Below, one piece after another: positions 19,529 through 57,777 of a stretch of DNA of 57,777 nucleotides (position 1 is its first letter; the number at the start of each line of letters is the position of its first letter). Under the pieces are notes generated by a model. It was not told where the DNA came from, did not search any database, and saw only the letters and a program-made list of their open reading frames with translations. This stretch comes from a virus (taxonomy: Duplodnaviria > Caudoviricetes), in IMG/VR virus record IMGVR_UViG_3300042901_001417, positions 1-57,777 of that record; one strand, written 5' to 3'. Made by a program: the position numbers and the translations under genes.

Positions 19529-19617
19529 TGCACAGTGATGTCATCTTGTCTGTGGTCGTGGTGGTTGTGAGCTTGTATTGGGTGCGTGGGTTTCAGGAAA
19601 CCGAGAGGAGTAGTGGG

Positions 19618-20421: not shown

Positions 20422-20452
20422 AGATCGTTCATCACTTTCTAAGGAAACCACA

Positions 20453-45546: not shown

Positions 45547-45599
45547 CGCTGCGACCGCCAGCACGTTTTCTCCATCAACCCCAAACAGATTTCGATATC

Positions 45600-45628
45600 A
45601 CCCGTCACTCACCCTGGCGGGTTTTTGT
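45600..45628 (+). terminator. Rho-independent terminator
   Basis: ACCCGTCA..TGGCGGGT stem followed by TTTTGT. Confidence 0.6.
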
Positions 45629-46119: not shown

Positions 46120-46149
46120 TTGCCAGTCTGTAGCCGTGTCGCTACAAAT
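46120..46149 (+). promoter_or_regulatory. Sigma70-like promoter with TGTAG-N8-CTACA operator
   Basis: TTGCCA-17-TACAAA; TGTAGccgtgtcgCTACA at 46129..46146. Confidence 0.55.
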
Positions 46150-46154
46150 TGGGT

Positions 46155-46500
46155 GCTGTTCGGCGTGGAAACCGAGTAGCGACTCCGGAAGCAAACGACA
46201 CATTGAAACTGGGCCGCCTGTCCCTTATACTCAGGCAACGCGATTCGGAGTCGCACAATCCACAATGACAGCCAGGGCAGAAATGCTCTGGCTGTCGGCG
46301 TTTGGTGAGTGCATAAAGGTACTCCGATCAGGTGACGGGCAGTCTCGCAAACTGAAGTCACTACATACTGCTGTGTCCAAAAACACCGGGCTATGTCCAA
46401 ACTGACAACCCGGCCCGTCCCGAGGACACCGGTCACTGGAACGTGAGCCTGATCTGGAGCGCTGAATCCGAACGACTAAGACCCCGAAGGCAGTGCAGGG
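46155..46500 (+). ncRNA. Candidate large structured RNA / leader
   Basis: Several long stems, including a 13-bp GAAA-capped hairpin at 46267..46296; no credible ORF. Confidence 0.4.
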
Positions 46501-46527
46501 GGTAATAGGACGGGATAAAGGAGCGGG

Positions 46528-46546
46528 AGCGTCCACGGTGGACGCT
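46528..46546. promoter_or_regulatory. Perfect 19-bp palindrome AGCGTCCAC-G-GTGGACGCT (member of a dispersed family)
   Basis: Abuts the AAGGAGG RBS; six related copies elsewhere in the window. Confidence 0.6.
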
Positions 46547-46557
46547 AAGGAGGGTGA

Positions 46558-47100
46558 ATGATGGTCAGTGAAAGCGACACGCACTGGGTGTGCCGGGAGT
46601 GCATCGGGCACAATGACTTTGAGGAGTTCACAGTCGGGCTGGGTGGCGCGGTGACATGCGAGGTGTGTACTGCGTTGCTCAGTCGTCCGAACATCGCATG
46701 CGTGTCGGATGGGGTGTATCAGCAGGCACGGGCTCGCGTAGATGCTCAGCAAACAGAGATGACGCGCGACTGGATAGAATCATGGAAGATCATCGTGCAG
46801 GCGCTGAAGGAGATTCGTGTTCCCAATGTCGATCACAACGCTCGAGCAATATTGGTAAGGCTGGCACAGGCGAACATACTGTGTAGTAAAGTTGGTGGTC
46901 CGCCAAACGTGAAGGCAATCTGCGAGGACGTGATGCGGTTGCGCGACATGTGCAAGTCGCCGGATGACGTGTTCGACGTGATGGAATGCTTGCCGATGCT
47001 TCTGGTGACAGACCCGGAGGAGCAGCAGGCGGCAGTAAAAGCGATCGCAGAGATCACAACTCGACATGGCGGCACAGTGATACCGTTACAGGATACATGA
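46558..47100 (+). CDS. Zn-finger protein with C-terminal domain paralogous to the cassette ORF 56747..56953
   Basis: CREC..CEVC; C-terminus ICEDVMRLRDMCK..TDPEEQQAA. Confidence 0.65.
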   Translation: MMVSESDTHWVCRECIGHNDFEEFTVGLGGAVTCEVCTALLSRPNIACVSDGVYQQARARVDAQQTEMTRDWIESWKIIVQALKEIRVPNVDHNARAILVRLAQANILCSKVGGPPNVKAICEDVMRLRDMCKSPDDVFDVMECLPMLLVTDPEEQQAAVKAIAEITTRHGGTVIPLQDT

Positions 47101-47105
47101 GGATC

Positions 47106-47444
47106 ATGACAAAAGCCCGAGAAGATATGCTGCGAGAGCAGTTTGAGAAGTGGGTTAGTTCGCCGCCGTTCGAAAAGAGTGTGGTACGGTTTCCAGAATG
47201 GTCAGCATGGCCCGGTATGTATCAGGATCTCAATGTCGACCTCGCATGGCAGGCGTGGAAGGAGTCGCTGTCTCGCTGCGCCCAGTACCCAGTGTTCGAC
47301 ATACTGGAGCGGCTGTACGCGAGTGGGTACTACCACAGTCAGCAGGATGGACGGTGGTGGCTGTGGGAGAAGGGTGGCAACGGCGTCTGCAGTGGAGAGA
47401 CCTTCCGGGATCTGTGTGTGAATATCGTGCTGATGGGGTTGTGA
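47106..47444 (+). CDS. Hypothetical phage protein
   Basis: REQFEKW..AWQAWK motif common in phage ORFs. Confidence 0.6.
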   Translation: MTKAREDMLREQFEKWVSSPPFEKSVVRFPEWSAWPGMYQDLNVDLAWQAWKESLSRCAQYPVFDILERLYASGYYHSQQDGRWWLWEKGGNGVCSGETFRDLCVNIVLMGL

Positions 47445-47445
47445 A

Positions 47446-47583
47446 TCACCTCCGCTCCATCGCGGAGTTGCTGAGGCCCATGACGAAGAACCATGCCACG
47501 ATGGCAAGGATCGGGTGGCCGGCACTCCAGACGCCGACAGCGATGGCAGTGGCAATGACGAGTTCAAGTATCAGTGCGATCAT
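47446..47583 (-). CDS. 45-aa membrane peptide in the lysogeny operon
   Basis: Translated by hand: MIALILELVIATAIAVGVWSAGHPILAIVAWFFVMGLSNSAMERR; GAAAGG RBS; below the ORF-track cutoff. Confidence 0.55.
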   Translation of the reverse strand: MIALILELVIATAIAVGVWSAGHPILAIVAWFFVMGLSNSAMERR

Positions 47584-47601
47584 GGTGGTGAGCCTTTCAG
47601 G

Positions 47602-47859
47602 TTAAGTGCTCGGTGTCTGAGAAAGATCCTGCCGCATGTCGGACAGTGACACGCCGAGTGCGTCTGCCAGAATACAGGCGTCGGAGAACAGGGGCTCATG
47701 ACGGGTTCGCTCAATATTGGCGATTGTCACCCGGTGCATGCAGCACATGTCGGCCAGTTGTTGCTGAGTGAGGCCGCGTCTGCCTCGCAAGGCTTTGACG
47801 TTGTTGGCGAATGCCAACTGCAACTGAAGCACTTTGCGTGCCTTGAATTTATCGTCCAT
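47602..47859 (-). CDS. XRE-family HTH repressor
   Basis: NVKALR..GLTQQQLA..VTIANIE..P..LADALGVS. Confidence 0.88.
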   Translation of the reverse strand: MDDKFKARKVLQLQLAFANNVKALRGRRGLTQQQLADMCCMHRVTIANIERTRHEPLFSDACILADALGVSLSDMRQDLSQTPST

Positions 47860-47923
47860 AACAGTTTCCGATCGGGCTGGTAGAGTAATCATCACGCTAC
47901 ACTCCTGTATTAAAGACCTTTGC

Positions 47924-48811
47924 TCACCGGGATGCAAGACGTTCTGTTGTGTCAGAGATTAGATTCTGTGCCTGCGGGTCCAGTCGGCGGAAGTTTGCGA
48001 GCAGGGTTTCCTCAGCGCCTCCCGGCTTATGGGAGCCCAGCATGGCGGGCGGAACGGCCACTCGCGGCGCTGCAGCCTGCAGTACGGTCAGCGGGTCCAA
48101 ATAATGCTGCAGCACCCCGATACCGGAACCGTGGATTAGGCTGCCAGCTGTGGCATTCGCATTCGTCCATTCATTCACGGCACGTTGCCGCATGAGCTTC
48201 GGGTGGAAATACGTGACACCGGCTGCCAGGCACGCGGCCTGTAAATGCTGCTTCAGGATTTTGGCAGTCCATCCCTCAGCGTGATGGTACGGCAATTCGT
48301 GTCGCACTGAGATGATTTCTGACAGCCATGCCGGCACTGGATACTGATGCACGTGTCCGGTCTTGCTCGCCTCCCAGCACAACACGGGGTCTGATGTCGG
48401 CAGGCTCAACTGCAGCCTGAGCGAGTCTCGCAGCCGGAGGCCCGTCCACAGAGTCAGGGCGAGCCATTGCCTGAGCCATGGTGTAGCGTGCAGGTACGCG
48501 GCGTTGATGGTTTCCAGTGCCACAGGTTTCGGTTTCGGCTTCGGTCGTCTCAGTCGCTTGCCCGGACTGAACGTCACGCCGGTCGTGAACTTCATCACCG
48601 TACAGACATCAGTGATGGTCTTCTCGATCGTGACTGGAGAAAGGCAACTGGCCCGGCAGCGTTCTCGAAAGACGGTCAGCATCTCGCTTTTGATGTCCGA
48701 ACACTGCTGCACCTGCATAACCCGTTCAAATCGCCTGCAGTTCGATGCAATCATGAAACTCCGCAAACCATTGGTGCGGACGTACTCCGCGGCCTGAAAC
48801 GATAGAAACAT
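47924..48811 (-). CDS. int: Tyrosine recombinase/integrase
   Basis: WTGLR, SKT, KLMR, IHG, HY catalytic pattern; start MFLSF after GGAG. Confidence 0.8.
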   Translation of the reverse strand: MFLSFQAAEYVRTNGLRSFMIASNCRRFERVMQVQQCSDIKSEMLTVFRERCRASCLSPVTIEKTITDVCTVMKFTTGVTFSPGKRLRRPKPKPKPVALETINAAYLHATPWLRQWLALTLWTGLRLRDSLRLQLSLPTSDPVLCWEASKTGHVHQYPVPAWLSEIISVRHELPYHHAEGWTAKILKQHLQAACLAAGVTYFHPKLMRQRAVNEWTNANATAGSLIHGSGIGVLQHYLDPLTVLQAAAPRVAVPPAMLGSHKPGGAEETLLANFRRLDPQAQNLISDTTERLASR

Positions 48812-48989
48812 TTGTGTGCTCCATAAGTTGGGCACTCCGTCGCAAAACAGTTCCTTTACGCCCATTCAATCGCAGAGCGCCACACACAACAGGACAGCAA
48901 AAAAATCAATATGAGAGACGTTCCTACCCTCTCATACGGCATCATCCTATGCCTACCTCCGCAATGGTCCTCATGCCTTAGTAACGGGT

Positions 48990-49032
48990 GCTTCCCAAGC
49001 TGAGGATGCCAGTCCGATTCTGGTCAGCCGCT
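48990..49032 (+). other. tRNA-Gly(CCC) 3' fragment, probable attP core
   Basis: GC-TTCCCAA-GCTGA, T-arm GCCAG-TCCGATT-CTGGT, acceptor strand CAGCCGC-T; no 5' half; next to the integrase. Confidence 0.7.
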
Positions 49033-49067: not shown

Positions 49068-49096
49068 TTGACACAGGGGAGTGTCCATGCAAAAAT
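49068..49096 (+). promoter_or_regulatory. Rightward (PR-like) promoter with GACAC-N6-GTGTC inverted repeat
   Basis: TTGACA-17-AAAAAT just before the Cro-like ATG. Confidence 0.5.
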
Positions 49097-49104
49097 CATC
49101 CGGT

Positions 49105-49323
49105 ATGAATCAATTCGCAGAACAAATAAAAGAATGGATGAACAGGGAAGGGATGACACTGCGCGCCGTGGCAGCGATGATCGGTATGGATCACGGCAAC
49201 TTGTCGAAAATCCTCAGTGGGCAGCAGGGCGTCACGATCACGCGAGCAGAAGAAATCGCAAACCGTTGCGGGTTCGAGTTTTGCGTCAATCTGAAAAAAT
49301 CTGAAAAAATTGGTGCGGCCTGA
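49105..49323 (+). CDS. Cro-like XRE HTH protein
   Basis: GMTLRAVAAMIGMDHGNLSKILSG; divergent from int/XRE. Confidence 0.8.
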   Translation: MNQFAEQIKEWMNREGMTLRAVAAMIGMDHGNLSKILSGQQGVTITRAEEIANRCGFEFCVNLKKSEKIGAA

Positions 49324-49357
49324 TCTTGTGTTGTCGTATCCGACACCGTAGTATTCC

Positions 49358-49395
49358 ACCCGTTGACTGGTCACTCGGTCAGCGGGTTTTTCTTT
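49358..49395 (+). terminator. Rho-independent terminator after the Cro-like gene
   Basis: ACCCGTTGAC..GTCAGCGGGT followed by TTTTCTTT. Confidence 0.6.
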
Positions 49396-49488
49396 GTCCT
49401 CAGCGACTGAATGTTGCGACCCCTGCGAGATGCGTAGGGAGTGGGGCACGCAAGGAATTTGGAACACCTGTTCTGAAAAGGATGCGAG

Positions 49489-49701
49489 ATGTCTGGAAAT
49501 ACCTCGGCGCTACGCCGCGCCTACCAGTTTGCAGATAGCGAAGTCGCGTCTGCCGCAAAACTGTTGCGGGCTCTCGAATGGGATATGCCTGCCGCCCACG
49601 ATCTTCTCGATGCTGTCCATCAGGTGAATAACCTGCTTCACGGAGACGCTGTTCCGGAAGGAGTTGGTCCTACAGAGACGGAGTTCGAACTGGATGTCTG
49701 A
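49489..49701 (+). CDS. Small hypothetical protein
   Basis: AAAGGA RBS. Confidence 0.5.
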   Translation: MSGNTSALRRAYQFADSEVASAAKLLRALEWDMPAAHDLLDAVHQVNNLLHGDAVPEGVGPTETEFELDV

Positions 49702-49783
49702 CTCAAGATGAGTCGGGCGAGCAATGGACGCGGTTGACAAGGTGTCAACTGCAGCACGATGCTGGAAAAGGAGTATTTTCAAA

Positions 49784-49969
49784 ATGCTGGTACTCACCCG
49801 TAGAGTTGGTGAAGAGATCGTGATCGGCGAAGTTATCCGGGTTAAGATCGTCTCTCAGGACGGCAACAAATTCCGGATCGGGGTGGAAGCCCCTCGCGAT
49901 ATCAATGTGGTCCGGGCTGAACTGGTCGACCCGCAGCCTGTTTATGTTCCCAAGAAGAAGGAGTCCTGA
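49784..49969 (+). CDS. csrA: Carbon storage regulator CsrA (RNA-binding)
   Basis: MLVLTRRVGEEIVIG..RIGVEAPRDINVVRAEL. Confidence 0.92.
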   Translation: MLVLTRRVGEEIVIGEVIRVKIVSQDGNKFRIGVEAPRDINVVRAELVDPQPVYVPKKKES

Positions 49970-49971
49970 AA

Positions 49972-51021
49972 ATGAGTGCAGAGAGTGTAGCGACAACGCT
50001 ACCTGCGAAGAGGCAGTGGAAGCCGATTATGGGGCCGGCACCGCACAGTGAACCGTGGTATGCACTGCGTGTGTATGACCCGGATCGCAAGGGTAGGGAA
50101 GTGGTGATCGGTGCGTCAGAGGCCGCAGCAGCGTGTAACCTGTCGCCGTACAGTTCCGCACTGCAGTTGTTTCTGGAGAAACGAGGTCAACTGCAAACGT
50201 GGCAGCCGGATCCGGAAGCGAAGGAGCGAATGGAGTTCGGGCTGCGGGTGGAGTCGCTGGTTCTCGATGCGTACGCCGATCGCGAAGACTGCGAGATTGA
50301 GAAGCAGTTGCCGATGTTCTTTCATCCGGAGCACGCCTTCTGCACAGCAACACCTGACGGGATTGCTCACCGCATTGAAGATCAGTGGTGTGTGGATGCG
50401 AAGAACAGCAACTGGCGAATGTTCGATGAGACAGGCGAGTCAGTGCATCGGTATGGCCAGGCTGGCACGGATCAGGTGCCTATCACAAATCTCTGTCAGG
50501 CTCAGCAGCAGATGTCTGTGATGGGTCTCGACCGATGCGACTTCCCGGTGTTGAAGGACGGCAACAAACTGCTGATCTACACCGTGCAGCGCAACGACGA
50601 TCTGATTGCTCAGATCATTGCCGCAGAGAAAGAGTTGTACGAGCGGATTCTGCGGAACGATCCCCCGGAGCCGAACTTCGAGCACACCGGAACGGTAAAG
50701 GTGCTGAGCCAGATGTTCGGCTGCAAGGTCGGTGAGGTGGTGTCTCTGACAGAGACTGAAAGCGATCTGTGGCGCAAGTACGAACAGTTGGGCATCACTG
50801 AGAAAGAGGCTCGCGAGGAGCGTGAGGAGATCAAAGCGAAACTGCTGTGGTCTCTCGGTGAGGCGGAAGTTGGTCGGTTCCCTGATATCGCCATGGAACT
50901 GAAGCGAACAGTCGTCAAGGATTCCTTGATCACTGAAAAGGATGTTCAGGATCTGATGGCAAAGGTTGGTCAGGTGGGCCGCAAGGGGCACATCCGGCTG
51001 ACTGCACGGAAAGTTAAGTGA
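49972..51021 (+). CDS. YqaJ / lambda-exonuclease family recombination nuclease
   Basis: IGASEAAA..SPYSS..FG..E..ATPDG..VDAKN..QAQQQM. Confidence 0.88.
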   Translation: MSAESVATTLPAKRQWKPIMGPAPHSEPWYALRVYDPDRKGREVVIGASEAAAACNLSPYSSALQLFLEKRGQLQTWQPDPEAKERMEFGLRVESLVLDAYADREDCEIEKQLPMFFHPEHAFCTATPDGIAHRIEDQWCVDAKNSNWRMFDETGESVHRYGQAGTDQVPITNLCQAQQQMSVMGLDRCDFPVLKDGNKLLIYTVQRNDDLIAQIIAAEKELYERILRNDPPEPNFEHTGTVKVLSQMFGCKVGEVVSLTETESDLWRKYEQLGITEKEAREEREEIKAKLLWSLGEAEVGRFPDIAMELKRTVVKDSLITEKDVQDLMAKVGQVGRKGHIRLTARKVK

Positions 51022-51196
51022 TCTGCAAACCTCTGTAGAACACCGGGTGAAGCTGCTCGAGCAGCCGGTATTGCGGAGGGCTGGGTGCGGTTCTCATTTC
51101 CCCCCAGCGCCTTAGCCCATGTGGTATCGAGCAGCGGCTGTACATGACTTCTCTGCAGCCCCATGTGAGGCATCTTTTCTTAACGGAGCATACACG

Positions 51197-51502
51197 GTGG
51201 ACGTCGTTCAGTGGGTTTGTCAGATAGACGTGGTTCGGAAGGCTCGCGCGGAGGAGCATCCGGACGGGTACATGGCAAGTCATCTGGGGACATACCTCGG
51301 TGGCTGGGCGGCAGGTATTGTCGTTCCGGTTGTGGTGGTGGTGCCTGACGAGATTGTGCGAGCATGGGATGATCACAATCCGCTGACATCGGACTCTATT
51401 AAAAAGCATCTGCGGTTTGTGGATGCGGTATCGGTGGTTCACGTAGGAAACCTGCGTGTGCTTGGCCGGTTGGTCGATCTGCCGTGGGCACAGCAATTAT
51501 GA
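51197..51502 (+). CDS. Hypothetical protein
   Basis: GGAG RBS and GTG start inside the palindrome. Confidence 0.45.
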   Translation: MDVVQWVCQIDVVRKARAEEHPDGYMASHLGTYLGGWAAGIVVPVVVVVPDEIVRAWDDHNPLTSDSIKKHLRFVDAVSVVHVGNLRVLGRLVDLPWAQQL

Positions 51503-51714
51503 CATCCCGCCCATCGTTTGACTTCGACCATCGGTCGTTACTGGATGATTTAACGCAGGCTCTGTTGTCTCATGATGGCAAAGAGTTTCAGGTGAAGCGG
51601 CAGGCGGAAGCCATGTCGGCGTTCCGGAGAGTTGAGTACATGTGTGTTGAGTGCCAGGCAGAGATACCTCCAGGTCGTGAAGGCCGAAAGTGTAAGCAAT
51701 GCCGTGGCTTGTGA
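51499..51714 (+). CDS. Small Zn-finger protein
   Basis: CVEC..CKQC; ATGA coupling. Confidence 0.55.
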   Translation: MTSRPSFDFDHRSLLDDLTQALLSHDGKEFQVKRQAEAMSAFRRVEYMCVECQAEIPPGREGRKCKQCRGL

Positions 51715-51798
51715 TCGCGTACTGGGTTCTGTGTGTGCCGAACCCGTTGTTTTGGGTGTGGTATTTCTTTTGTGAAACAGAAGAGGAGTGAGCAGGGT

Positions 51799-52848
51799 AT
51801 GAGTGGAGAGATGATTCAGCATGGCGGAAGTTCCCAGCAGGGCGCGATGGCGATGGCAACGTCGCGTCAGGCTGCAGAAACGCAGGCCGCTATGATCGTG
51901 GCAAAAAACTACCCACGTGATGAAACGCTGGCCATCAGCCGGCTGCTGAAATCCTGTAAGCGGAAGGGGCTGGCGGAATGCTCCATGTACTCGTACCCGA
52001 AAGGCGGAACCAAAGTCACTGGCAGTTCCATTCGGCTGGCTGAGGCGATGGCTCAGGCGTGGGGCAACATCGATTACGGCGTGATTGAACTGGAGCAGAA
52101 GCCGGGTGAGTCCGTGGCGATGGCTTATGCGTGGGATCTGGAAACGAACACTCGCCGGCAGATGGTGTTCACTGTTCCGCACATTCGGTCGACCAAGCAG
52201 GGGAACGTACTGCTGACCGATCCCCGCGACATCTACGAGATGGTGGCAAATCAGGGTGCTCGCCGCGTCCGTGCCTGCATTCTGGGTGTGATCCCCGGAG
52301 ACATTGAGGATCTGGCTGTCGCTGAGTGCGAAAAGACCCTGAAGGATGGGTCTGGTAAGCCGCTGGATGATCGCATTCGGGATATGGTGATCGCGTTCGA
52401 GGAACTGCGTGTGTCTCGCGAAATGCTTGAGGCGCGTCTGCAACATCCGGTCGCTGCGTGTGTACCACAGGATGTGGTGAGCATGACGAAAATCTACCTG
52501 TCGATTCGTGATGGAATATCGAAGCGGGAAGATTGGTTCGACATGAATGCCGGTGCCGCGAAACTGGCACAGGATGCCGAAGCGAAGGCTGGTGGATCCC
52601 GCACAGAAGCACTGGCAAAGAAGACTGCCCCGAAGAAAGAGAAGCCTGCAGAGGCTCCACCAGAACCGCCACCAGTGAAACCGCTGGTGACTGAGCAGGA
52701 TTTTGCAGAGGCAATAGTGGGTGCAACGAGCGCAGGTGAACTGCAGCAAATATGGGATCAGATTCAGCCAGCTGATCTGGATGGTGACGCAATGACCAGG
52801 CTGTTGACTCTGGTGGAAGTGCGTCATGTGGAGATAAAGCCCCGGTAA
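51799..52848 (+). CDS. Putative ssDNA-annealing/recombination protein (YqaJ partner)
   Basis: AKNYPRDE..YSYPKGG..GSSIRLAEAMAQAWGN..AWDLETN; synteny. Confidence 0.6.
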   Translation: MSGEMIQHGGSSQQGAMAMATSRQAAETQAAMIVAKNYPRDETLAISRLLKSCKRKGLAECSMYSYPKGGTKVTGSSIRLAEAMAQAWGNIDYGVIELEQKPGESVAMAYAWDLETNTRRQMVFTVPHIRSTKQGNVLLTDPRDIYEMVANQGARRVRACILGVIPGDIEDLAVAECEKTLKDGSGKPLDDRIRDMVIAFEELRVSREMLEARLQHPVAACVPQDVVSMTKIYLSIRDGISKREDWFDMNAGAAKLAQDAEAKAGGSRTEALAKKTAPKKEKPAEAPPEPPPVKPLVTEQDFAEAIVGATSAGELQQIWDQIQPADLDGDAMTRLLTLVEVRHVEIKPR

Positions 52849-52936
52849 GCCCCTCCCCACTGCGAAAGAAATCGCCCGTTGCTCCATGCTGCGGTGTGCT
52901 CAGGAGGAGCCGGTGGGGATCTTTTAAGGAGTTGGT

Positions 52937-53233
52937 GTGAAGCAGGTCATCACAGCACAGAACGTCGTGGACCGGATGGCGGCAGGAGACCAGTTAACTC
53001 TGGTGCTCATGACGACGCCACACAAGCAGAGGATGGCCCTGTACAGTCTGAGTGCGGAATACTGGAAGTTTCAGGATGGCTCACGTGTGACCAGAAGCGT
53101 GGTGGCAATGCTGAGGAAACAGGGATTCCTGAAGTGTGTTAGGCAGGGAGACCTGATGGTTGCGAATCTGATTGAGGGGTACGGCGAAAAGCGTGTGTCG
53201 TATGCAATCGATAAAAGAGAGCGGTTCGTTTAA
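52937..53233 (+). CDS. Hypothetical protein
   Basis: AAGGAG RBS. Confidence 0.55.
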   Translation: MKQVITAQNVVDRMAAGDQLTLVLMTTPHKQRMALYSLSAEYWKFQDGSRVTRSVVAMLRKQGFLKCVRQGDLMVANLIEGYGEKRVSYAIDKRERFV

Positions 53234-53244
53234 GGAGAAATACA

Positions 53245-54027
53245 ATGCAGTGTGAGTTGAAAACAATTACGCCGGAATACGCCAGTAGCCTGTTGGTGCG
53301 GAACGTCGGCAACAGGGCGTTGAGTCGATCGCACGTTGAGTCGTTGGCGAAAGAGATGAGGGCCGGGCGATGGAAGGTGAACGGAGATACCATTTGCGTG
53401 AATGGGTCGAGACTCATAGACGGACAGCACAGACTGCAGGCGGTTGTAGAGTCTGGTGTCACCATACAGAGCCTCGTGGTGACGGACCTGCCATCGGATG
53501 TGTTCGACACAAAAGATGTCGGCAAGCGACGAAGCCCCGGAGATACGCTGTCGGTGCTTGGGGTGCCGAATGCAGCACGGTTGGCAGCGGCACTGGCGTT
53601 GGTAGACGCATACTGCACGGGGCGTGGAGATGTCCGGGTTCACTACACCAACACGGAAGTAGAAGGGTTGATGCACAAATACCCGGATGTGATGGCGTCG
53701 ATACAATCAACAGTGAATGGAAAGTCTCTCTTGCAGCCATCGGTGCTGGACGCCTGCCATTATTTGTTTTCGCAAAAAGACAAGGGCCTGGCAGACGAGT
53801 TTGTAGTGAAGGTGTTGAAGGGAACAGGGCTAACCGAGGGGTCGGCATGGTATGTCCTGCGAGAACGACTCGTTGCAAACAGTCTGAGTAAAGCCAAACT
53901 GTCGCGACCATACCTGATGGCCCTGTGCATAAAGGCGTGGAACTGCGAGCGATCTGGTAAGACAGTGCGATGTTTGCGATGGCGAGAAAAAGGCGATGCA
54001 GTGGAGCCGTACCCGGTAATTCATTGA
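53245..54027 (+). CDS. ParB/Srx-like N-terminal domain phage protein
   Basis: ITPE.A..NR..M..G.W..NG..LIDGQHRL. Confidence 0.75.
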   Translation: MQCELKTITPEYASSLLVRNVGNRALSRSHVESLAKEMRAGRWKVNGDTICVNGSRLIDGQHRLQAVVESGVTIQSLVVTDLPSDVFDTKDVGKRRSPGDTLSVLGVPNAARLAAALALVDAYCTGRGDVRVHYTNTEVEGLMHKYPDVMASIQSTVNGKSLLQPSVLDACHYLFSQKDKGLADEFVVKVLKGTGLTEGSAWYVLRERLVANSLSKAKLSRPYLMALCIKAWNCERSGKTVRCLRWREKGDAVEPYPVIH

Positions 54028-54162
54028 GTACCTGGCGCAACCCCGTAACGATGCCACGTCAGTCAAATGCGTAATACGGGCTGAGACCACAGGATGCTTT
54101 GCAAACATCAATGGTCCGTGCCGCTGAGAGGCGGACAATGAAACACTAAGGGAGTGGCGGTC

Positions 54163-54408
54163 ATGATGACAGAAGAACAGAAAGATGAAATCCGGATCGA
54201 CCTGCTGGACACAGTGCAGGATTCCGGACAGTGGCTGACTCGTGCGGAGATTGTGGAACTGTGCTGCGAGAAGCACGGTGGTCCGTTCTATAAGTGGGTG
54301 GAGGCTGTGGGCGCTGCGATTCAGTTGGGCCAGTTGCTGCCGTCTGGAGTAGAGCAGCGTTGTACTGTCTCAGGGTTCCCGGATATGGCGTATCAGGTGA
54401 AACGATGA
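54163..54408 (+). CDS. Small hypothetical protein
   Basis: Coupled to the replication gene. Confidence 0.55.
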   Translation: MMTEEQKDEIRIDLLDTVQDSGQWLTRAEIVELCCEKHGGPFYKWVEAVGAAIQLGQLLPSGVEQRCTVSGFPDMAYQVKR

Positions 54409-55571
54409 TCGAAAATGTAGCGTTCGTGCAACATGCAGAGGAGACGGAGCAGCGTCTGGTGCAGAGGGCTCAGGATGCTGGGCACGCTGCCGCATGGGTG
54501 ATCGGTGAGTGTGCAGCCAAGTGGTACAAGTCATTCGCAGCCGGGCGGATGGATAAAGACTTCGGTGCCATGGTCGACATGACAGGCGATCAGGTCAACC
54601 AGAGGCGGCTGGTGTGGGAGCGATTCGGTGAACGTGGACTGCACAGAGAGTTGCGTGGGCTGTCGTGGTCACATTTCCGAGAGGCGTGTTATTGGGATGA
54701 TGCGGACGACATTCTGACATGGGCATCGCAGGCGGAAGCCACGGTCAAAGAAATGATCATGTGGCGGCGCTCGAAGCATGGTGAGCCGTTGTTCCCGGTG
54801 CTTCATCAGCCGAGAGTTCTGGAGCCCGAGAAGCCAGAGGAGGCGGAAGATAAAACAACCCCCAGGAAGGATGAAGCCTCTACGCGAGTGCCGGCGAGTG
54901 TAAACCGGAATCGAGAGACAGTGGAGAACCCCGACAGAGCGCGCTCCGAAACACTCAAAGAGCAAGCGGCTGCGGGGTCCGGACCTGACACAATCGTGGA
55001 GGTCGACAAGGGGAAGAAGGATAAAGAGGCTGCGGCAGAGGTGATCCTGCAGATCAAGGAGCTCGTGCTGAAGGTGGATCGGATCGCACTGCAGCAGCAG
55101 AAGGAAGCACTGGCAAAAGAACTGTCGAAGTTCGTCGAGCGGGTGCAGCACAAGGTGGAAGCCAAGAAGGCGGATGTGGCTGGCATGGCAGTCAAGGTGC
55201 AGGAGGCATGGAATGCCGTGCCCGGGTTCGTGAAGTGCAAGTCGATGAATGAGTCTCGTAAGGCACACGTGGCTGCGAGGGCGAAAGACCCGTTCTGGAA
55301 AGAGCACTGGCAAGAGGCACTGCAGAGAATCGTCGGCAAGGCGTGGTTTTTGGGCCAGAATCGTACGGCATGGGTGGCCAATCTGGACTGGTTTCTGAGA
55401 CCCGAGGTGGTCGCGAAAATAATGGAAGGCCGGTACGACAACCTGACGTACAGCGCAACACCACTGCCACAGGATTCTGCAGCCAGTCGTCGTGCTGCTG
55501 CAAACAGGGCGGCATTTAATGAGGTTCTTGGATCTACTCCGGTATGTGGGGATGAAGATGCAGTCTTCTGA
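54405..55571 (+). CDS. Replication initiator / replisome-organizer-like protein
   Basis: C-terminal AWN..R..W..NRTAWVANLDWFLRPE..KIMEGRYD; N-terminal LSWSHF helical domain. Confidence 0.7.
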   Translation: MIENVAFVQHAEETEQRLVQRAQDAGHAAAWVIGECAAKWYKSFAAGRMDKDFGAMVDMTGDQVNQRRLVWERFGERGLHRELRGLSWSHFREACYWDDADDILTWASQAEATVKEMIMWRRSKHGEPLFPVLHQPRVLEPEKPEEAEDKTTPRKDEASTRVPASVNRNRETVENPDRARSETLKEQAAAGSGPDTIVEVDKGKKDKEAAAEVILQIKELVLKVDRIALQQQKEALAKELSKFVERVQHKVEAKKADVAGMAVKVQEAWNAVPGFVKCKSMNESRKAHVAARAKDPFWKEHWQEALQRIVGKAWFLGQNRTAWVANLDWFLRPEVVAKIMEGRYDNLTYSATPLPQDSAASRRAAANRAAFNEVLGSTPVCGDEDAVF

Positions 55572-56154
55572 AAACAGTGCGGGCAGAATACAGGCTTTGC
55601 TGCTGGCGTTCTTCGATGTCAGGAACATCACAGTGAGCCCCGATTCGCTGCGAATGTGGATTGATGCTTTCTCAGACATGACCCCACAGGGTATCGAGAT
55701 GGCCATTCGGCGGTTCAACCGAGAGTCGACCGATTATCCAACACCGGCAGCTGTGAGGAAATACGCGGGCGTGGAAGGATTGAATGACGAGCAGCGTGCG
55801 AGTATCGCGTGGGGGACTGTGCGGAAGACAATCGCACAATACGGCGCGTATTACTCGATCGCGTTCGATGACGCGGTGATCCATGCAGCCATCAGAGCCA
55901 TAGGGGGCTGGGAGAGGCTGTGCGAAACTCCGCATGATCAGATGCAGTGGAAACAGAAAGAGTTCGTCAGGGCTTACGTGGAGGCTGCTGGAACTGGTAT
56001 CGGAGACTCGCGACCACTGGCTGGCGTGTTGGGGTTTAAGGAGCGGGCAGATGTGCAGTCGGGGCTCGGGGCGCATCCGACACACAAACGGCTGACAGGT
56101 CCGAGTGAGGTGAAGCAGAGGATTCCGCTGCCGAACCTGAGTGTGGATAGATAA
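55552..56154 (+). CDS. DUF6475 / helicase-loader-like protein
   Basis: YPTPAAV..AW..FDDAVIHAAIRAIGGWERLC..KEFVRAY. Confidence 0.7.
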   Translation: MKMQSSENSAGRIQALLLAFFDVRNITVSPDSLRMWIDAFSDMTPQGIEMAIRRFNRESTDYPTPAAVRKYAGVEGLNDEQRASIAWGTVRKTIAQYGAYYSIAFDDAVIHAAIRAIGGWERLCETPHDQMQWKQKEFVRAYVEAAGTGIGDSRPLAGVLGFKERADVQSGLGAHPTHKRLTGPSEVKQRIPLPNLSVDR

Positions 56155-56235
56155 CGACGGCATTCACCGGGTGTGCGCCGGTGATGTGGAATACATTTCG
56201 GCCCGGTCGCACACTCCGGTGCAATGCTTAGTTAT
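56151..56235 (-). mobile_element. attC-like recombination site 1
   Basis: Minus strand: GCATAAC-5nt-ATTGCACC..GGTGAAT-6nt-GTTATCT; hairpin with two extrahelical bases. Confidence 0.85.
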
Positions 56236-56257
56236 GCTGCTTTGCGGGGGAATCGTA

Positions 56258-56641
56258 ATGTCGTTTCAGATGCGGATACGCGAAATAGATATCAATGTGG
56301 AAACATCTTTGCGAATGGTGAGTTCACCTGCTGAAGCATGGCAGAGAGCGAAACGTCTACTGGATGCCTTTGGGAAAGAGGATCACAAGCCGAATGTGGA
56401 ATGTCGCGTGAATGCCTTCGGTTATGTGATTTGGAACCTTGAAGTGTTGGGAAAACAGAACGGGATAGCGTGGAGAATTCCGAACGGTTGGGACACATGG
56501 GAAGGCGTTGAAACCATGCTAATCGAGTGGCTGACAAAGTCGTATGACGGACAATTACCGCGAGAACTAGGAGTCTTGCGACAGGCGATGAGATCGCTGC
56601 CTGGTGTGCCGACCGTGCTGACAGACGATCGTGGTTTTTAA
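56258..56641 (+). CDS. Cassette A hypothetical protein
   Basis: Fills the attC1-attC2 interval. Confidence 0.6.
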   Translation: MSFQMRIREIDINVETSLRMVSSPAEAWQRAKRLLDAFGKEDHKPNVECRVNAFGYVIWNLEVLGKQNGIAWRIPNGWDTWEGVETMLIEWLTKSYDGQLPRELGVLRQAMRSLPGVPTVLTDDRGF

Positions 56642-56647
56642 GTCAGC

Positions 56648-56731
56648 ATAACGACCAGCGTTCACAGGGCGGAGAGAAATAATGGAAGAACAGAACCTAG
56701 GTGAAGCCGCTCCTGTGCAACGCTTTGTTAT
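56648..56731 (-). mobile_element. attC-like site 2
   Basis: Plus strand: ATAAC..GTTCACAGGGCGG..CCGCtCCTGTGcAAC-GCTTT-GTTAT. Confidence 0.8.
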
Positions 56732-56746
56732 CTGGAGTTTGTCGCG

Positions 56747-56953
56747 ATGGCTGAAGGAACTGAACCTGACGCAGAACAGATCTGTACGCAAGTAATGAGG
56801 TTGCGTGAGATGTGCAAGTGTAGTCAGGATATTGTGGATATCATGGAACTGTTGCCACTGCTGGTGCATACCGATCCACAGGAACAGGAAGCAGCTCGCA
56901 AGGCGATTGTTGAGGTTACGAACCGAACAGGCGGTCATGTGTTTCGGTTCTGA
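56747..56953 (+). CDS. Cassette B protein, paralog of the 46558..47100 C-terminus
   Basis: ICTQVMRLREMCK..LPLLVHTDPQEQEAARKAI. Confidence 0.65.
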   Translation: MAEGTEPDAEQICTQVMRLREMCKCSQDIVDIMELLPLLVHTDPQEQEAARKAIVEVTNRTGGHVFRF

Positions 56954-56962
56954 TTCTTCCAG

Positions 56963-57050
56963 ATAACGCTCGCGATCAGCGGGCACGAGGAGAAAAACTA
57001 TGACTACAGAAAACGGCCAATCGAGTGCTCCGTCTGCATCGCGTTGTTCT
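56963..57050 (-). mobile_element. attC-like site 3
   Basis: Plus strand: ATAAC-6nt-GATCAGCGGGCAC..GTGCtCCGtCTGcATC-5nt-GTTCT. Confidence 0.75.
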
Positions 57051-57239
57051 GCGTGCGACGGGTGCAAGTATCAGCATTTCGAGTCGGAAGGCGGATGGTG
57101 CTATATGTTCCGAAATGAACCGCAAACGCTCCCTTGTGGGCAGCACGACAAGTTTTCCGCCGAACGGAAAGCAATGGGCAGCCTTGTACGCAAGAACCCG
57201 CAAATTTTGGCGTTGATGATTATGGGCATGAGTCGGTAG
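57000..57239 (+). CDS. Cassette C Cys-rich small protein starting inside attC3
   Basis: GAGGAG RBS and ATG lie in the attC loop; CxxCxxC..C..C. Confidence 0.6.
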   Translation: MTTENGQSSAPSASRCSACDGCKYQHFESEGGWCYMFRNEPQTLPCGQHDKFSAERKAMGSLVRKNPQILALMIMGMSR

Positions 57240-57247
57240 TCGTCCGC

Positions 57248-57333
57248 AGAACGCTGCACTTCACCGGGTGGCAGACGGTGGACTTTCTATTCTTTTTGAC
57301 GGAGTCTGCCACTCCGGTGGAAGTGCTTGTTAT
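57248..57333 (-). mobile_element. attC-like site 4
   Basis: Plus strand: AGAAC-6nt-CTTCACCGGGTGGCAGAC..GTCTGCCACtCCGGTGgAAG-5nt-GTTAT. Confidence 0.85.
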
Positions 57334-57355
57334 CGTGCTTTTTGGAGTGCCGGAA

Positions 57356-57538
57356 ATGGATGTTTTGATTTCAGGTCTATTCGTTCTATTTGGCTTCTGT
57401 GTCGTCTTGTACTGGATTGGATGCGGCATTTCTTTGCTGTGGGCTTACAGTCCAGCGCTGACGGTTCTTGCTGGTATCGCAATTTTCGTTGTCTGTATCG
57501 GAGGCGGCGACGGAACAGACATTGGTGGGCACGTGTGA
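57356..57538 (+). CDS. Cassette D small membrane protein
   Basis: GGAG RBS; two hydrophobic segments. Confidence 0.55.
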   Translation: MDVLISGLFVLFGFCVVLYWIGCGISLLWAYSPALTVLAGIAIFVVCIGGGDGTDIGGHV

Positions 57539-57651
57539 GCATGCTGGAAAGACACAGTATCAAGCCGTCGGGCTAGAACCACGGATCGCCGAAACGCGAA
57601 AGCAGAGGCATCAGTCTTGACAGCCGGGAGAGACCGGCATTTTTGGTCACG

Positions 57652-57737
57652 ATAACGACGGCATTCACCGGGTGCCGCAGCCCGGCGTGCAATTCTGAAA
57701 ACGGATGGTGCGGCACTCCGGTGGAATGCTTTGTTAT
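57652..57737 (-). mobile_element. attC-like site 5
   Basis: Plus strand: ATAAC-6nt-ATTCACCGGGTGCCGCA..TGCGGCACtCCGGTGgAAT-5nt-GTTAT. Confidence 0.85.
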
Positions 57738-57777
57738 CGGGCTGAGGCCCATACACCGGCTGCCGGAATGGTCGATC

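What the first reader, a model, noticed from the sequence alone, without database searches (positions are those of the whole stretch)
56151..57777. Integron-like attC cassette array embedded in a phage replication operon, with no IntI in the window
Seen: five ~85-bp hairpins with attC geometry on the minus strand (AAC, 5 nt, 8-nt L'', loop, 7-nt L', 6-7 nt, GTT) and extrahelical bases at the same positions. Each interval between sites holds one small gene. The right end of each site is exactly complementary to the left end of the NEXT site: GTTATGCTG/CAGCATAAC, GTTATCTGGA/TCCAGATAAC, GTTCTGCG/CGCAGAAC, GTTATCGTG/CACGATAAC. Sites 3 and 4 mismatch their own ends. Established: this is the pattern expected of integron cassettes that were once circular. 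The genes run antisense to the usual cassette polarity, co-oriented with the phage operon, and the first site overlaps the DUF6475 stop codon. Inference: the phage shuffles accessory genes as cassettes, probably using a host IntI in trans. The window's tyrosine recombinase is short and shows no obvious IntI-specific insertion.
Basis: partly seen in the sequence, partly recalled or inferred. Interest (0 to 1): 0.92.

Follow-up and report, generated by a model that had tools for sequence, protein, structure and literature searches.

The report
Integron cassette array in a phage
The end of this planctomycete-phage genome carries a genuine array of integron-type gene cassettes without its own integron integrase, and related phages swap such cassettes precisely at the hairpin sites, so these phages appear to use the integron system to shuffle small accessory genes.

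Summary
Five hairpin sites (core AAC..GTT 80-84 nt) lie at 56145-57743 on the + strand. They have extrahelical bases at fixed positions. The right box of each site is complementary to the left box of the next.

A covariance model built from them finds the same kind of site in three settings:
- arrays directly beside canonical integron integrase genes in 8 of 10 Pirellulaceae loci, so they are true attC sites and the window's + strand is the attC bottom strand;
- at least 150 times in Rubripirellula obstinata;
- arrays of 5-16 sites inside other viral contigs, including a CheckV-complete tailed phage.

Across arrays, 56 of 60 neighbouring sites show the next-site complementarity. Three cassettes are shared at 95-100% identity between otherwise different arrays, and the homology breaks at AA|C.

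No IntI is present in the window or in nine other array-bearing viral records. Phage cassettes are read on the attC bottom strand (38 of 49). Host cassettes are read on the other strand (71 of 78). In relatives the arrays end at a conserved attI-like junction.

Host IntI acting in trans is the likeliest catalyst, but this is inferred. The window's divergent tyrosine recombinase looks like an ordinary lysogeny integrase. Phage CALINs were already reported in 2023, so I rate this a new variant of a known kind.

The parts
56145..56241 (+). attC site 1 (bottom strand on +). AAC at 56153-56155, GTT at 56231-56233. Its ATAAC box contains the stop codon of the DUF6475 gene.
   Evidence: R1 88.4 bits; DNA fold z -5.7; sequence read.
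56155..56651 (+). Cassette 1 (497 nt, from AA|C to AA|C): site 1 plus ORF 56258-56641 (127 aa, no known family).
   Evidence: Boundaries. No Pfam or PHROG match. Atlas search gave nothing usable.
56642..56737 (+). attC site 2. The loop carries GGAGAG..ATG (an ORF start at 56682).
   Evidence: R1 80.4 bits; fold z -3.4.
56652..56966 (+). Cassette 2 (315 nt): ORF 56747-56953 (68 aa), 56% identical to the C-terminus of window ORF 46558-47100.
56957..57056 (+). attC site 3. It has three bulged bases, weak thermodynamic stability, and the start codon of ORF 57000-57239 in its loop.
   Evidence: R1 74.6 bits; fold z -0.58.
56967..57251 (+). Cassette 3 (285 nt): ORF 57000-57239 (79 aa, Cys-rich, no family).
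57242..57339 (+). attC site 4.
   Evidence: R1 90.2 bits; fold z -4.5.
57252..57655 (+). Cassette 4 (404 nt): ORF 57356-57538 (60 aa, hydrophobic). An alternative frame is 57268-57576.
57646..57743 (+). attC site 5.
   Evidence: R1 94 bits; fold z -5.1.
57656..57777 (+). Cassette 5, cut by the contig end. Its first 34 nt after the site recur in three metagenome arrays. A public contig continues 639 nt beyond the window end; within that stretch, 360 nt past the end, lies a sixth attC arm.
49081..56154 (+). Upstream early/replication operon that runs into the array. It holds a Cro-like HTH, a CsrA-like gene, a YqaJ exonuclease, phrog_3657, phrog_5931, an O-like/DnaD-like initiator and DUF6475.
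47924..48865 (-). Divergent tyrosine recombinase ('rec', about 294 aa from an internal start). It is followed on the same strand by an XRE-type repressor-like gene (47602-47937). It is probably the lysogeny integrase and is not an IntI.

Best explanation
Region 56145-57777 is a genuine integron-type gene-cassette array that lacks an integron integrase (a CALIN). It is carried at the 3' end of the early/replication operon of a temperate phage of Pirellulaceae (Planctomycetota).

Structure. Each unit is an attC hairpin followed by one small ORF. The attC bottom strand is the phage sense strand.

Mobility. Units move by site-specific recombination with the crossover at AA|C in the 5' arm of that strand. 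This is the canonical integron position, equal to G|TT on the top strand. That is why the box after each GTT is complementary to the box before the next AAC.

Expression. The array has no promoter-bearing integrase end in the window. It is most probably expressed by read-through from the phage operon. Two ORFs start inside attC loops.

Catalyst. The catalyst is most probably the host's chromosomal IntI acting in trans on folded single-stranded phage DNA during replication or lysogeny.

Role. The likely role is shuffling of small accessory genes, some of them counter-defence genes, between co-infecting phages.

Shown: attC family membership, bottom-strand assignment, cassette boundaries, cassette exchange between phages, absence of IntI in the phage records, reversed gene polarity.
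Inferred: host IntI as catalyst, read-through expression, function of the cargo.
For: 1. Conserved structure. 73 sites from the window, 8 viral loci, one Rubripirellula contig and 3 Planctomycetota MAG contigs align to one structure. 87.5% of cells are paired, against 67.8% in shuffles and 35-48% with slid partners. 22 of 29 pairs have compensatory changes.

2. The sites are attC sites of canonical integrons. TIGR02249 scores above its cut-off in 34 of 81 genomes sampled from the family of the Rubripirellula obstinata genome. I fetched 10 intI loci. 8 of them carry arrays of R1-type sites directly 5' of intI, in the geometry [R1-oriented array][junction][intI ->]. One locus had the opposite orientation and one had no sites. 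R. obstinata itself has at least 150 matches and a canonical IntI.

3. Cassette signature. The right box of site n is complementary to the left box of site n+1, by at least 4 nt beyond the core, in 56 of 60 adjacent pairs. The figure is 17 of 73 for a site's own ends, 11 of 60 for the previous site and 243 of 2000 for random pairs.

4. Mobility. G005, G007, G008 and G009 share structural proteins at about 47-99% identity, mostly 55-99%, but almost no cassettes. Three cassettes are shared at 99.2%, 94.9% and 99.6% identity over their full length. Identity is 0.95-1.00 inside them and 0.49-0.55 outside, and it breaks at AA|C. In 4 of 4 independent pairs the attC on the 5' side travels with the gene (0.85-0.99 identity) and the one on the 3' side does not (0.63-0.71).

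5. The arrays lie inside phages. G007 is rated 100% complete by CheckV. It has a terminase, a portal, a head-protease fusion and tail genes, and carries 16 R1 matches in mid-genome.

6. No IntI in the phage records. TIGR02249 finds nothing in the window or in 4 other array-bearing viral records. PF00589 finds nothing in 5 more.

7. An attI-like end. In relatives, arrays end with a box complementary to the last attC, followed by the exact sequence AAC|TTTGAATTATC. The host junctions next to intI are similar: AAC|CAGTAATTATG, AAC|GAGGTAATTATC and AAC|TTATTTATC.

8. Cargo. 3 of 10 cassette ORFs from relatives that I scanned are orphan N6/N4 DNA methyltransferases.
Against: - No recombinase activity was tested, so host IntI in trans is inference only.
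- The host of the window phage is not identified. Only 34 of 81 sampled genomes of the family have IntI above the cut-off.
- The window's array runs off the contig, so neither its far end nor an attI-like site is seen here. The motif AACTTTGAATTATC is absent from the window.
- The window's cassettes 1-4 have no near-identical copy among the cassettes of the other arrays compared. Mobility is shown for relatives, not for these four.
- There is one exception to the AA|C rule. The start of cassette 5 lies behind three different attC bodies in the window, in L207/L208 and in L209. Some exchange therefore occurs at or near the GTT side, or by homologous recombination within the conserved arms.
- Site 3 is not thermodynamically better than shuffles.
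- IntegronFinder's own attC model could not be run.
- The contigs laid from public runs showed no excision or circle joints. Contigs cannot show rare forms.
Confidence: 0.75

Rival explanations
1. The phage's own divergent tyrosine recombinase (47924-48865, 'rec') is the cassette recombinase. The module would then be a self-contained phage integron with a non-IntI integrase.
For: - rec homologues lie about 100 nt upstream of, and co-directional with, the first attC in G005, G006/L010 and L011.
- rec is 92% identical between the window and G005. These two share nothing else detectable except the attC sites.
- The catalytic residues R144, K168, R226, H245 and Y255 are conserved in 45 sequences.
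- The model has a tyrosine-recombinase fold with pLDDT 91.5.
- 4 of the 6 array-bearing viral records whose full sequence I had encode rec.
Against: - rec sits in a lysogeny-type module in the window: rec, then an XRE-like gene, with a divergent Cro-like gene.
- 9 of 14 rec-bearing viral loci have no R1 site within the locus. Their 9 records have none anywhere. One of these records has terminal repeats.
- G008 (87% complete) and G009 carry arrays but no rec.
- rec is 7-9 kb from the array, on the other strand, in the window and in G007.
- The K168-to-R226 distance is 58 residues, which leaves no room for the insertion that IntI uses to bind the extrahelical bases. That role of the insertion is recalled, not tested here.
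- The PDB profile search puts lambda Int first (E 6.6e-6) and IntI4 at 0.011.
- The sites are the same family as those serviced by canonical IntI in the hosts.
- rec is at the end of the array opposite the attI-like junction.
Confidence: 0.12
2. The array is a passive piece of a host chromosomal integron. Either it is host flank of a prophage or a misassembly, or it is a fragment picked up by illegitimate recombination. In either case it has no ongoing role or turnover in the phage.
For: - The array lies at the very end of a 'linear' record that CheckV rates 84% complete.
- The same type of site is hugely abundant in a planctomycete chromosome.
- Fragments of chromosomal integrons in Vibrio phages are on record in Qi et al. 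2023. I saw only the heading of that section (3.1), in the outline.
Against: - Gene polarity is of the phage type. The longest ORF is on the R1 strand in 4 of 4 window cassettes and in 38 of 49 viral cassettes. It is on that strand in only 7 of 70 cassettes of host arrays, five of six of them beside intI, and in 0 of 8 in L016 (Fisher p 1.5e-15).
- The window's sites resemble viral sites (the best blastn matches are 90-96% identical) more than host sites (host sites score 30-62 bits on R1).
- The median spacer is 279 nt in viral arrays and 453.5 nt in host arrays.
- Site 1 overlaps the stop codon of a phage gene.
- Cassette 2 is a paralogue of another window gene.
- In G005-G009 the arrays are internal to phage genomes and differ between close relatives.
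- A 12-kb public contig carries the junction unchanged. That run may be the source sample, so it is not independent.
Confidence: 0.08
3. The hairpins are not recombination sites. They would be intergenic terminators or regulators, or short 'linker' homologies used by the phage's YqaJ/RecT-type recombination system to shuffle modules.
For: - A YqaJ exonuclease and a phrog_3657 gene lie just upstream.
- The arms are conserved over 10-25 nt.
- The start of cassette 5 is joined to three different attC bodies. That is what exchange inside conserved arms would give.
Against: - Homologous exchange does not explain why the 5-7 variable nucleotides outside the core are complementary between neighbouring sites in 56 of 60 pairs.
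- It does not explain homology breaks exactly at AA|C.
- The asymmetric bulged bases are conserved.
- The same sites lie beside IntI genes in 8 of 10 host loci.
Confidence: 0.03

Closest known systems
CALINs (clusters of attC sites lacking an integron integrase) in bacteriophage genomes: Qi, Rajabal, Ghaly, Tetu and Gillings, Front Microbiol 2023 (PMC9892861). I read the abstract, the outline, section 3.4 and search passages; supplements were closed.
   Same: Both are arrays of attC sites with small cassettes and no intI inside phage genomes. Orphan DNA methyltransferases are among the cargo in both. In both, a bacterial IntI is proposed to act in trans.
   Different: - That paper reports 17 CALINs, each with a minimum of two attC sites, in cultured or database phages. 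'Planctomycet' does not occur in its main text.
- Here arrays reach 16 R1 matches in one phage.
- Here arrays end in a conserved attI-like junction.
- Here genes are read on the attC bottom strand.
- Here cassette exchange between phages is seen with breaks at AA|C.
- The number of sites per CALIN and the host lists are in that paper's supplementary tables, which I could not read.
Sedentary chromosomal integrons of Pirellulaceae (canonical IntI, TIGR02249, with large attC arrays).
   Same: The structural family of attC is the same: model R1 hits both. The crossover position is the same. The geometry of array orientation relative to the terminal AAC|AT-rich junction is the same.
   Different: - The host arrays have intI next to the junction.
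- Their cassettes are longer (median spacer 453.5 nt against 279 nt).
- Their genes lie on the top strand (63 of 70, plus 8 of 8 in L016), whereas 38 of 49 phage cassettes have the gene on the bottom strand.
- No cassette was found shared between a host array and a phage array among those compared. Only L016 and L025 were in the comparison.
Classical mobile and chromosomal integrons (class 1 integrons, the Vibrio cholerae superintegron). The attC anatomy used here is recalled from the literature: Stokes 1997, Bouvier 2005/2009, MacDonald 2006.
   Same: R''/R' boxes ending in AAC/GTT, an unpaired central spacer, L boxes with extrahelical bases on one arm, a variable loop, and R' of one site matching R'' of the next.
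   Different: The box letters differ from the recalled RYYYAAC/GTTRRRY consensus (for example GTTATGC, GTTATCT). The complementary boxes extend to about 9 nt. There is no Pc-intI-attI platform in the phage.
Lambda-type phage tyrosine integrases (for the window's 'rec').
   Same: The best sequence-profile and fold matches are lambda Int structures. The gene sits next to repressor-like and Cro-like genes.
   Different: rec gets no Pfam or NCBIfam hit. It has no arm-binding N-domain. The first His of the HxxR motif is not conserved. It has a helical C-terminal extension of about 55 residues.

Membership tests
attC recombination sites of integrons | Imperfect hairpin closed by inverse core and core boxes ending in AAC and GTT. 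| tested here: met
   All five window sites have it. In the 73-site alignment the two A-U pairs of the AAC/GTT core hold in 73 and 72 of 73 sites and the C-G pair in 72 of 73.
attC recombination sites of integrons | Extrahelical bases at fixed positions on one arm only, and an unpaired bubble between the R and L boxes (strand asymmetry). | tested here: met
   The bulged bases lie in the 3' arm of the + strand in all five sites, with a 3-versus-4-nt bubble. The model scores 74.6-94 bits on the + strand; four sites score 18-27.5 bits on the - strand and site 3 gave no - strand match.
attC recombination sites of integrons | Structure conserved while sequence varies (covariation). | tested here: met
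   22 of 29 pairs have compensatory changes. No shuffle out of 500 reached the observed covariation score. The alignment was fitted to the model, which favours the structure.
attC recombination sites of integrons | Within an array, the core box of one site matches the inverse core box of the next (relic of circular cassettes). | tested here: met
   4 of 4 pairs in the window and 56 of 60 overall, against 12% of random pairs.
attC recombination sites of integrons | Sites of the same family lie in arrays adjacent to an integron integrase gene. | tested here: met
   8 of 10 Pirellulaceae intI loci. This is not the case in the window itself.
attC recombination sites of integrons | Recognition by the curated attC covariance model (IntegronFinder) or by HattCI. 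| not testable with these tools
   Neither model is on hand. Rfam returned no attC-type family, only a twister ribozyme elsewhere in the window.
attC recombination sites of integrons | Recombined by an IntI as a folded bottom strand. | not testable with these tools
   This needs a bench assay.
Complete integron | An intI gene (with the IntI-specific insertion) next to attI and the first cassette. | tested here: not met
   TIGR02249 finds no match in the window. The window's only tyrosine recombinase has no IntI signature.
[quoted passage not shown] | Two or more attC sites in one orientation at cassette spacing, with no intI nearby. | tested here: met
   Five sites, start-to-start spacing 285-497 nt, all on the + strand, and no intI in 57.8 kb.
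Integron integrase (IntI), for window ORF 47924-48865 | Score above the TIGR02249 cut-off, and the extra helix between the catalytic Lys and the HxxR motif. | tested here: not met
   No match. K168 to R226 is 58 residues. Profile search gives lambda Int at E 6.6e-6 and IntI4 at 0.011. Foldseek ranks it alongside generic tyrosine recombinases.
Tyrosine recombinase superfamily, for window ORF 47924-48865 | Catalytic R..K..R..H/W..Y residues and a two-domain fold. | tested here: met
   R144, K168, R226 and Y255 are invariant and H245 is nearly invariant in 45 sequences. AF2 pLDDT is 91.5. Foldseek probability is 1.00 to lambda Int, Xer, Tn1549 Int and IntI4.

The most novel reading that the evidence does not exclude
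These Pirellulaceae phages carry a phage-specific 'reverse-polarity' integron platform, with these features:
- an intI-less array with its own conserved attI-like junction (AAC|TTTGAATTATC in relatives);
- transcription from the far end of the array by the phage early operon, so that cassette genes sit on the attC bottom strand, with start codons in attC loops and stop codons in the ATAAC box;
- a cassette pool that is distinct from the host's and circulates between unrelated phage lineages.

The system would parasitise the host IntI or, less likely, use the phage's own non-IntI tyrosine recombinase. Its purpose would be to shuffle counter-defence and other accessory genes.
Probability: 0.5. 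Interest if true: 0.8.

Novelty: new variant of a known kind. Interest (0 to 1): 0.7.

Why it matters
Integrons are regarded as bacterial devices. Phage-borne attC clusters have been reported only as rare, short CALINs.

Here a set of uncultivated planctomycete phages carries long arrays with exact cassette-level exchange between phages, an attI-like end, and gene polarity opposite to that of the host's cassettes.

If a host IntI services these arrays, phages are using a bacterial adaptive system against the bacterium. Orphan methyltransferases are among the cargo. The two cassette pools can be told apart by polarity.

The reversed polarity also bears on the open question of how cassettes arise. 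In these phages the attC is joined to the 5' side of the gene and overlaps its translation signals.

The system is directly testable with attC x attI assays and with read-level searches for cassette circles.

Tried and rejected
- Rfam has no attC family. The whole-window scan gave only a twister-P5 ribozyme elsewhere.
- A search for close relatives of the window phage through its DUF6475 protein found none in viral contigs. I could therefore not compare cassette content on the same backbone. The comparison rests on another phage lineage (G005-G009).
- The 14-mer AACTTTGAATTATC scanned against all viral contigs hit at least 118 stretches, mostly unrelated records. It is too short and AT-rich to be informative, so I did not use that result.
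- Contigs of four lake-water runs were laid on 54000-57777. They showed no excision or circle joints. Contigs drop rare forms, so this says nothing either way. The low-share runs gave only short fragments. I draw no conclusion from parts without cover.
- The window's cassette proteins gave nothing in Pfam or PHROGs. The Atlas gave no usable hit for cassette 1 and hits below 0.9 for cassette 3.
- Seven large window ORFs gave no PHROG hit. Nine of ten gave no Pfam hit, and five more gave no PHROG hit. The window's virion genes therefore remain unidentified. Its viral nature rests on the IMG/VR/CheckV label, the early-operon genes and the polyvalent protein.
- I considered that rec might be an IntI analogue, and I rate it unlikely (see rivals).
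- I considered IS200/IS605-type or REP-type hairpins. I rejected both because of the next-site complementarity and the link to IntI.
- R1 found no site near the IntI of R. obstinata (L038) or of G003 (L039). Both IntI genes lie near contig ends, so this is uninformative.
- Literature searches and passages from IntegronFinder 2.0 and the SCI-defence preprint turned up no report of planctomycete-phage arrays, of reversed-polarity phage cassettes, or of an attI-like end in phages. Only these four searches support 'not found in print'.
- Supplementary tables of Qi et al. 2023 (lists of phage CALINs and their boundaries) were closed. They may hold larger arrays than the text states.

Full report
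WHAT IS THERE

The window is a whole IMG/VR virus record: 57,777 bp, 'linear', CheckV completeness 84%. Its last 1.6 kb holds five hairpin sites on the + strand. They lie at 56145-56241, 56642-56737, 56957-57056, 57242-57339 and 57646-57743.

All five share one anatomy:
- an AAC...GTT closing stem;
- a small asymmetric bubble (3 nt against 4 nt);
- a 5-6-bp stem;
- one bulged base;
- a 6-bp stem;
- a bulged T;
- an inner stem and a variable loop.

Both bulges lie in the 3' arm of the + strand. Four sites fold much better than shuffled sequence (z -3.4 to -5.7). Site 3 does not (z -0.58). Among the five alone, 15 of 29 pairs show compensatory changes.

A covariance model built from them (R1) scores them at 74.6-94 bits on the + strand. 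Four of them score 18-27.5 bits on the - strand; site 3 gave no - strand match. It finds nothing else in the window. These hits are circular, because the model was built from them. The independent evidence comes from other records.

Complementarity beyond the core is 6, 7, 5 and 6 nt to the next site, against 2, 2, 0, 0 and 4 nt to a site's own end. Site 1 overlaps the TAA of the DUF6475 gene.

THE SITES ARE attC SITES OF PLANCTOMYCETE INTEGRONS

A short pattern taken from the sites hit 12 viral loci and 17 genome loci. In one search, R1 found strong matches only in Planctomycetota among the genome loci. These were Rubripirellula obstinata (Pirellulaceae) and three MAG contigs. The exception was one match of 34 bits in an Acidobacteriota MAG contig, which I did not follow.

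R. obstinata holds at least 150 matches on many small contigs, and a canonical integron integrase (427.8 bits against a cut-off of 265). In a sample of 81 genomes of its family, 34 have IntI above the cut-off.

I fetched 20 kb around ten of those intI genes.
- Eight carry arrays of R1-type sites directly on the 5' side of intI. The R1 strand runs towards intI: [array in R1 orientation][junction][intI ->].
- One locus (L202) had sites in the other orientation on the 3' side.
- One locus (L203) had none.

This geometry is the classical divergent integron seen from the bottom strand. It agrees with the position of the bulged bases. That extrahelical bases lie on the R''-L'' arm of the bottom strand is recalled from the integron literature; I did not test it.

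So the window's + strand is the attC bottom strand.

On an alignment of 73 sites from the window, 8 viral loci and 4 genome loci:
- 87.5% of cells pair, against 67.8% in shuffles and 35-48% with slid partners;
- 22 of 29 pairs carry compensatory changes.

THE CASSETTE SIGNATURE IS GENERAL, AND CASSETTES MOVE

Over all arrays, the right box of a site matches the left box of the next site, by at least 4 nt beyond the core, in 56 of 60 adjacent pairs. The controls are much lower:
- a site's own ends: 17 of 73;
- the previous site: 11 of 60;
- random pairs: 243 of 2000.

Five further viral records were read whole.
- G007 (43 kb, CheckV 100%) encodes a terminase, a portal, a head-protease fusion and tail proteins. 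It carries 16 R1 matches at 15953-21111. That places the array between the end of a + strand early block and the end of the - strand late block.
- G005, G007, G008 and G009 share structural proteins at about 47-99% identity, mostly 55-99%. Their arrays have almost nothing in common.

I cut the arrays at AA|C and compared them. Three cassettes recur in different neighbourhoods:

| Cassette | Length | Identity | Found in |
|---|---|---|---|
| F1 | 379 nt | 99.2% | G005 position 5, G008 position 4 |
| F2 | 329 nt | 94.9% | G007 position 5, G008 position 3 |
| F3 | 1421 nt | 99.6% | G008, L008 |

Identity is 0.95-1.00 inside these cassettes and 0.49-0.55 in the 160-nt flanks. The change falls at AA|C on both sides.

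In 4 of 4 independent pairs with at least 98% identical gene segments, the attC body on the 5' side (R1 orientation) is co-inherited at 0.85-0.99 identity. The body on the 3' side is not (0.63-0.71). This is what bottom-strand crossovers at AA|C predict.

There is one exception. The first 34 nt of the window's fifth cassette recur in three metagenome contigs. There, the gene segment (identical between L207 and L208, about 96-100% to L209) follows attC bodies different from the window's site 5. Some exchange therefore happens at or near the GTT side. Possible causes are top-strand events or homologous exchange in the conserved arms. I cannot tell which.

Cassettes 1-4 of the window have no near-identical copy among the cassettes of the other arrays compared.

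NO INTEGRASE, REVERSED POLARITY, AND AN attI-LIKE END

TIGR02249 finds nothing in the window or in four other array-bearing viral records. PF00589 finds nothing in five more.

In host arrays the longest ORF of a cassette lies on the strand opposite to R1 in 63 of 70 cassettes. Intervals above 1500 nt were dropped before that count. It is also opposite in 8 of 8 cassettes of the R. obstinata contig L016. In viral arrays the longest ORF lies on the R1 strand in 38 of 49 cassettes, including 4 of 4 in the window (Fisher p 1.5e-15). 'Longest ORF' is a crude proxy for the real gene. Median spacers are 279 nt in viral arrays and 453.5 nt in host arrays.

In the window:
- two ORFs start inside attC loops, each with a GGAG-type motif before the ATG (sites 2 and 3);
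- the TAA of the ATAAC box serves as the stop codon of DUF6475. The same box ends the cassette-5 gene in L207 (read).

Phage cassettes are thus attC-first, gene-second on the sense strand.

In G005, G006, G007, G008 and G009, and in L003/L004 and L008/L009, the array ends at its 3' side (R1 orientation) in a characteristic way. There is a box complementary to the last attC, followed by the exact sequence AAC|TTTGAATTATC and then conserved backbone. At the equivalent point of host integrons, between the first cassette and intI, six of eight loci examined show a matched box followed by similar AT-rich sequence. Examples:
- AAC|CAGTAATTATG
- AAC|GAGGTAATTATC
- AAC|TTATTTATC

In the other two loci, a seventh match (L201, 2.4 kb away) is doubtful and one locus gave none. 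The resemblance is suggestive and has not been tested statistically.

The window has no such motif, because its array is cut by the contig end. A 12-kb contig in a public lake-water run continues 639 nt beyond the window end. Within that stretch there are 360 nt and then another attC 3' arm. The array therefore has at least six sites. That run may be the source sample, so it is not independent.

THE WINDOW'S TYROSINE RECOMBINASE

ORF 47924-48865 (- strand) has no Pfam or NCBIfam match and a weak phrog_1 match (E 3.7e-4). It has 113 homologues of about 290 aa. In an alignment of 45 sequences, R144, K168, R226 and Y255 are invariant and H245 is nearly so.

The profile finds lambda Int at E 6.6e-6 and IntI4 at 0.011. 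The AF2 model (pLDDT 91.5) matches lambda Int, Xer, Tn1549 Int and IntI4 about equally (TM 0.4-0.56). It is a tyrosine recombinase, but not an IntI.

In the window it is followed by an XRE-type gene and faces a Cro-like gene and the early operon. That is the layout of a lysogeny module.

Points in favour of a link with the arrays:
- Homologues sit about 100 nt upstream of the first attC in G005, G006/L010 and L011.
- The G005 protein is 92% identical to the window's, although the two phages share nothing else detectable.

Points against:
- 9 of 14 rec-bearing viral loci have no R1 site, and their 9 records have none anywhere. All are incomplete by CheckV, but one has terminal repeats.
- G008 and G009 carry arrays without rec.
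- rec was not found in four planctomycete genomes searched with the single protein.

I take rec to be an ordinary phage integrase. It often lies near the accessory-gene hot spot. I put the probability that it is the cassette recombinase at about 0.12.

HOW IT MOST LIKELY WORKS

Shown:
- The units are attC plus ORF.
- They are bounded at AA|C of the sense (bottom) strand.
- They are exchanged between phages.
- The sites are of the host-integron family.
- The phages lack IntI.

Inferred:
- During replication or recombination the phage DNA is single-stranded, the + strand folds, and the host's IntI recombines attC with attC or with the attI-like end. This excises and inserts cassettes.
- The array is expressed by read-through from the early operon. 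That would select for cassettes whose gene lies on the bottom strand, and so create a phage-specific pool.

Cargo. 3 of 10 cassette ORFs of relatives that I scanned are orphan N6/N4 DNA methyltransferases. This fits counter-defence and matches what Qi et al. saw. The window's four cassette ORFs have no recognisable family.

COMPARISON WITH WHAT IS KNOWN, AND NOVELTY

Qi et al. 2023 (PMC9892861; abstract, outline, section 3.4 and passages read) reported 17 CALINs of at least two attC sites in phages. They showed that IntI1 can recombine five of six phage attC sites tested. The kind is therefore known, and so is the idea of a host IntI acting in trans.

As far as four literature searches show, the following are not in print:
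- arrays of this length in phages;
- the planctomycete setting;
- the conserved attI-like end;
- the systematic reversal of gene polarity relative to the host's cassettes;
- direct evidence of cassette exchange between phages at the crossover point.

The supplements of Qi et al. were closed and may qualify the first point.

I class the finding as a new variant of a known kind, with interest 0.7.

LIMITS

- No IntegronFinder run was possible.
- No enzyme was tested.
- The window's array end is missing.
- The host of this phage is not identified.
- R1 is narrow, being built from five sites, and may miss other attC types.
- The polarity count uses longest ORFs.
- The virion genes of the window phage were not identified.

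Noticed in passing
window 11807-11870 (-): Type-P5 twister ribozyme match above Rfam's gathering score (41.6 bits against 37.6, E 2.7e-5), in an intergenic gap between two - strand ORFs.
   Followed up: no
window 62-7162 (+): A 2366-aa ORF with an ART-PolyVal domain (ADP-ribosyltransferase of polyvalent proteins, E 1.8e-19) at residues 495-619. It is a polyvalent protein of the kind carried by phages and conjugative elements.
   Followed up: no
window 20399-22069 (+): Large serine recombinase (phrog_125 DNA invertase, E 4e-58; phrog_95 integrase, E 8.6e-57). The phage therefore has two candidate integrases.
   Followed up: no
window 49724-49969 (+): CsrA-like regulator gene at the head of the early operon (phrog_9500, E 2.8e-15). 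Homologues occur near the rec gene in several other viral loci.
   Followed up: no
window 46558-47444 (+): Accessory genes next to rec are related to cassette genes. The C-terminus of ORF 46558-47100 is 56% identical to cassette-2 ORF 56747-56953. ORF 46986-47444 has a 53%-identical match between two attC sites of MAG contig L025. No R1 site is detectable in 44000-49000.
   Followed up: partly
L193 (R. obstinata contig) 8747-10889 (-): A 336-aa tyrosine recombinase and a 374-aa zinc-finger transposase-like ORF sit together inside the chromosomal attC array. This is probably an inserted mobile element.
   Followed up: no
window 57656-57777; L207 2134-2665; L208; L209 2420-2917: The same cassette gene is found behind three different attC bodies, while the next attC downstream is the same in L207 and L209. 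This is an exception to the AA|C boundary rule that no single crossover model explains.
   Followed up: partly
L025 (Planctomycetaceae MAG contig, 4940 bp) 106-1311: This MAG contig's array has phage-type polarity (3 of 3 longest ORFs on the R1 strand) and a homologue of a window gene. It may be a phage or prophage fragment binned with the MAG.
   Followed up: no
L197-L206 (Pirellulaceae intI loci): The open frames around the IntI matches are 357-627 aa, against a 315-position model. These IntI proteins may carry a long N-terminal extension.
   Followed up: no
L202 (G082:C53) 6944-9208: Here R1-type sites lie on the 3' side of intI and in the opposite orientation to the other eight loci. This may be an inverted-integrase arrangement or a second array.
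   Followed up: no
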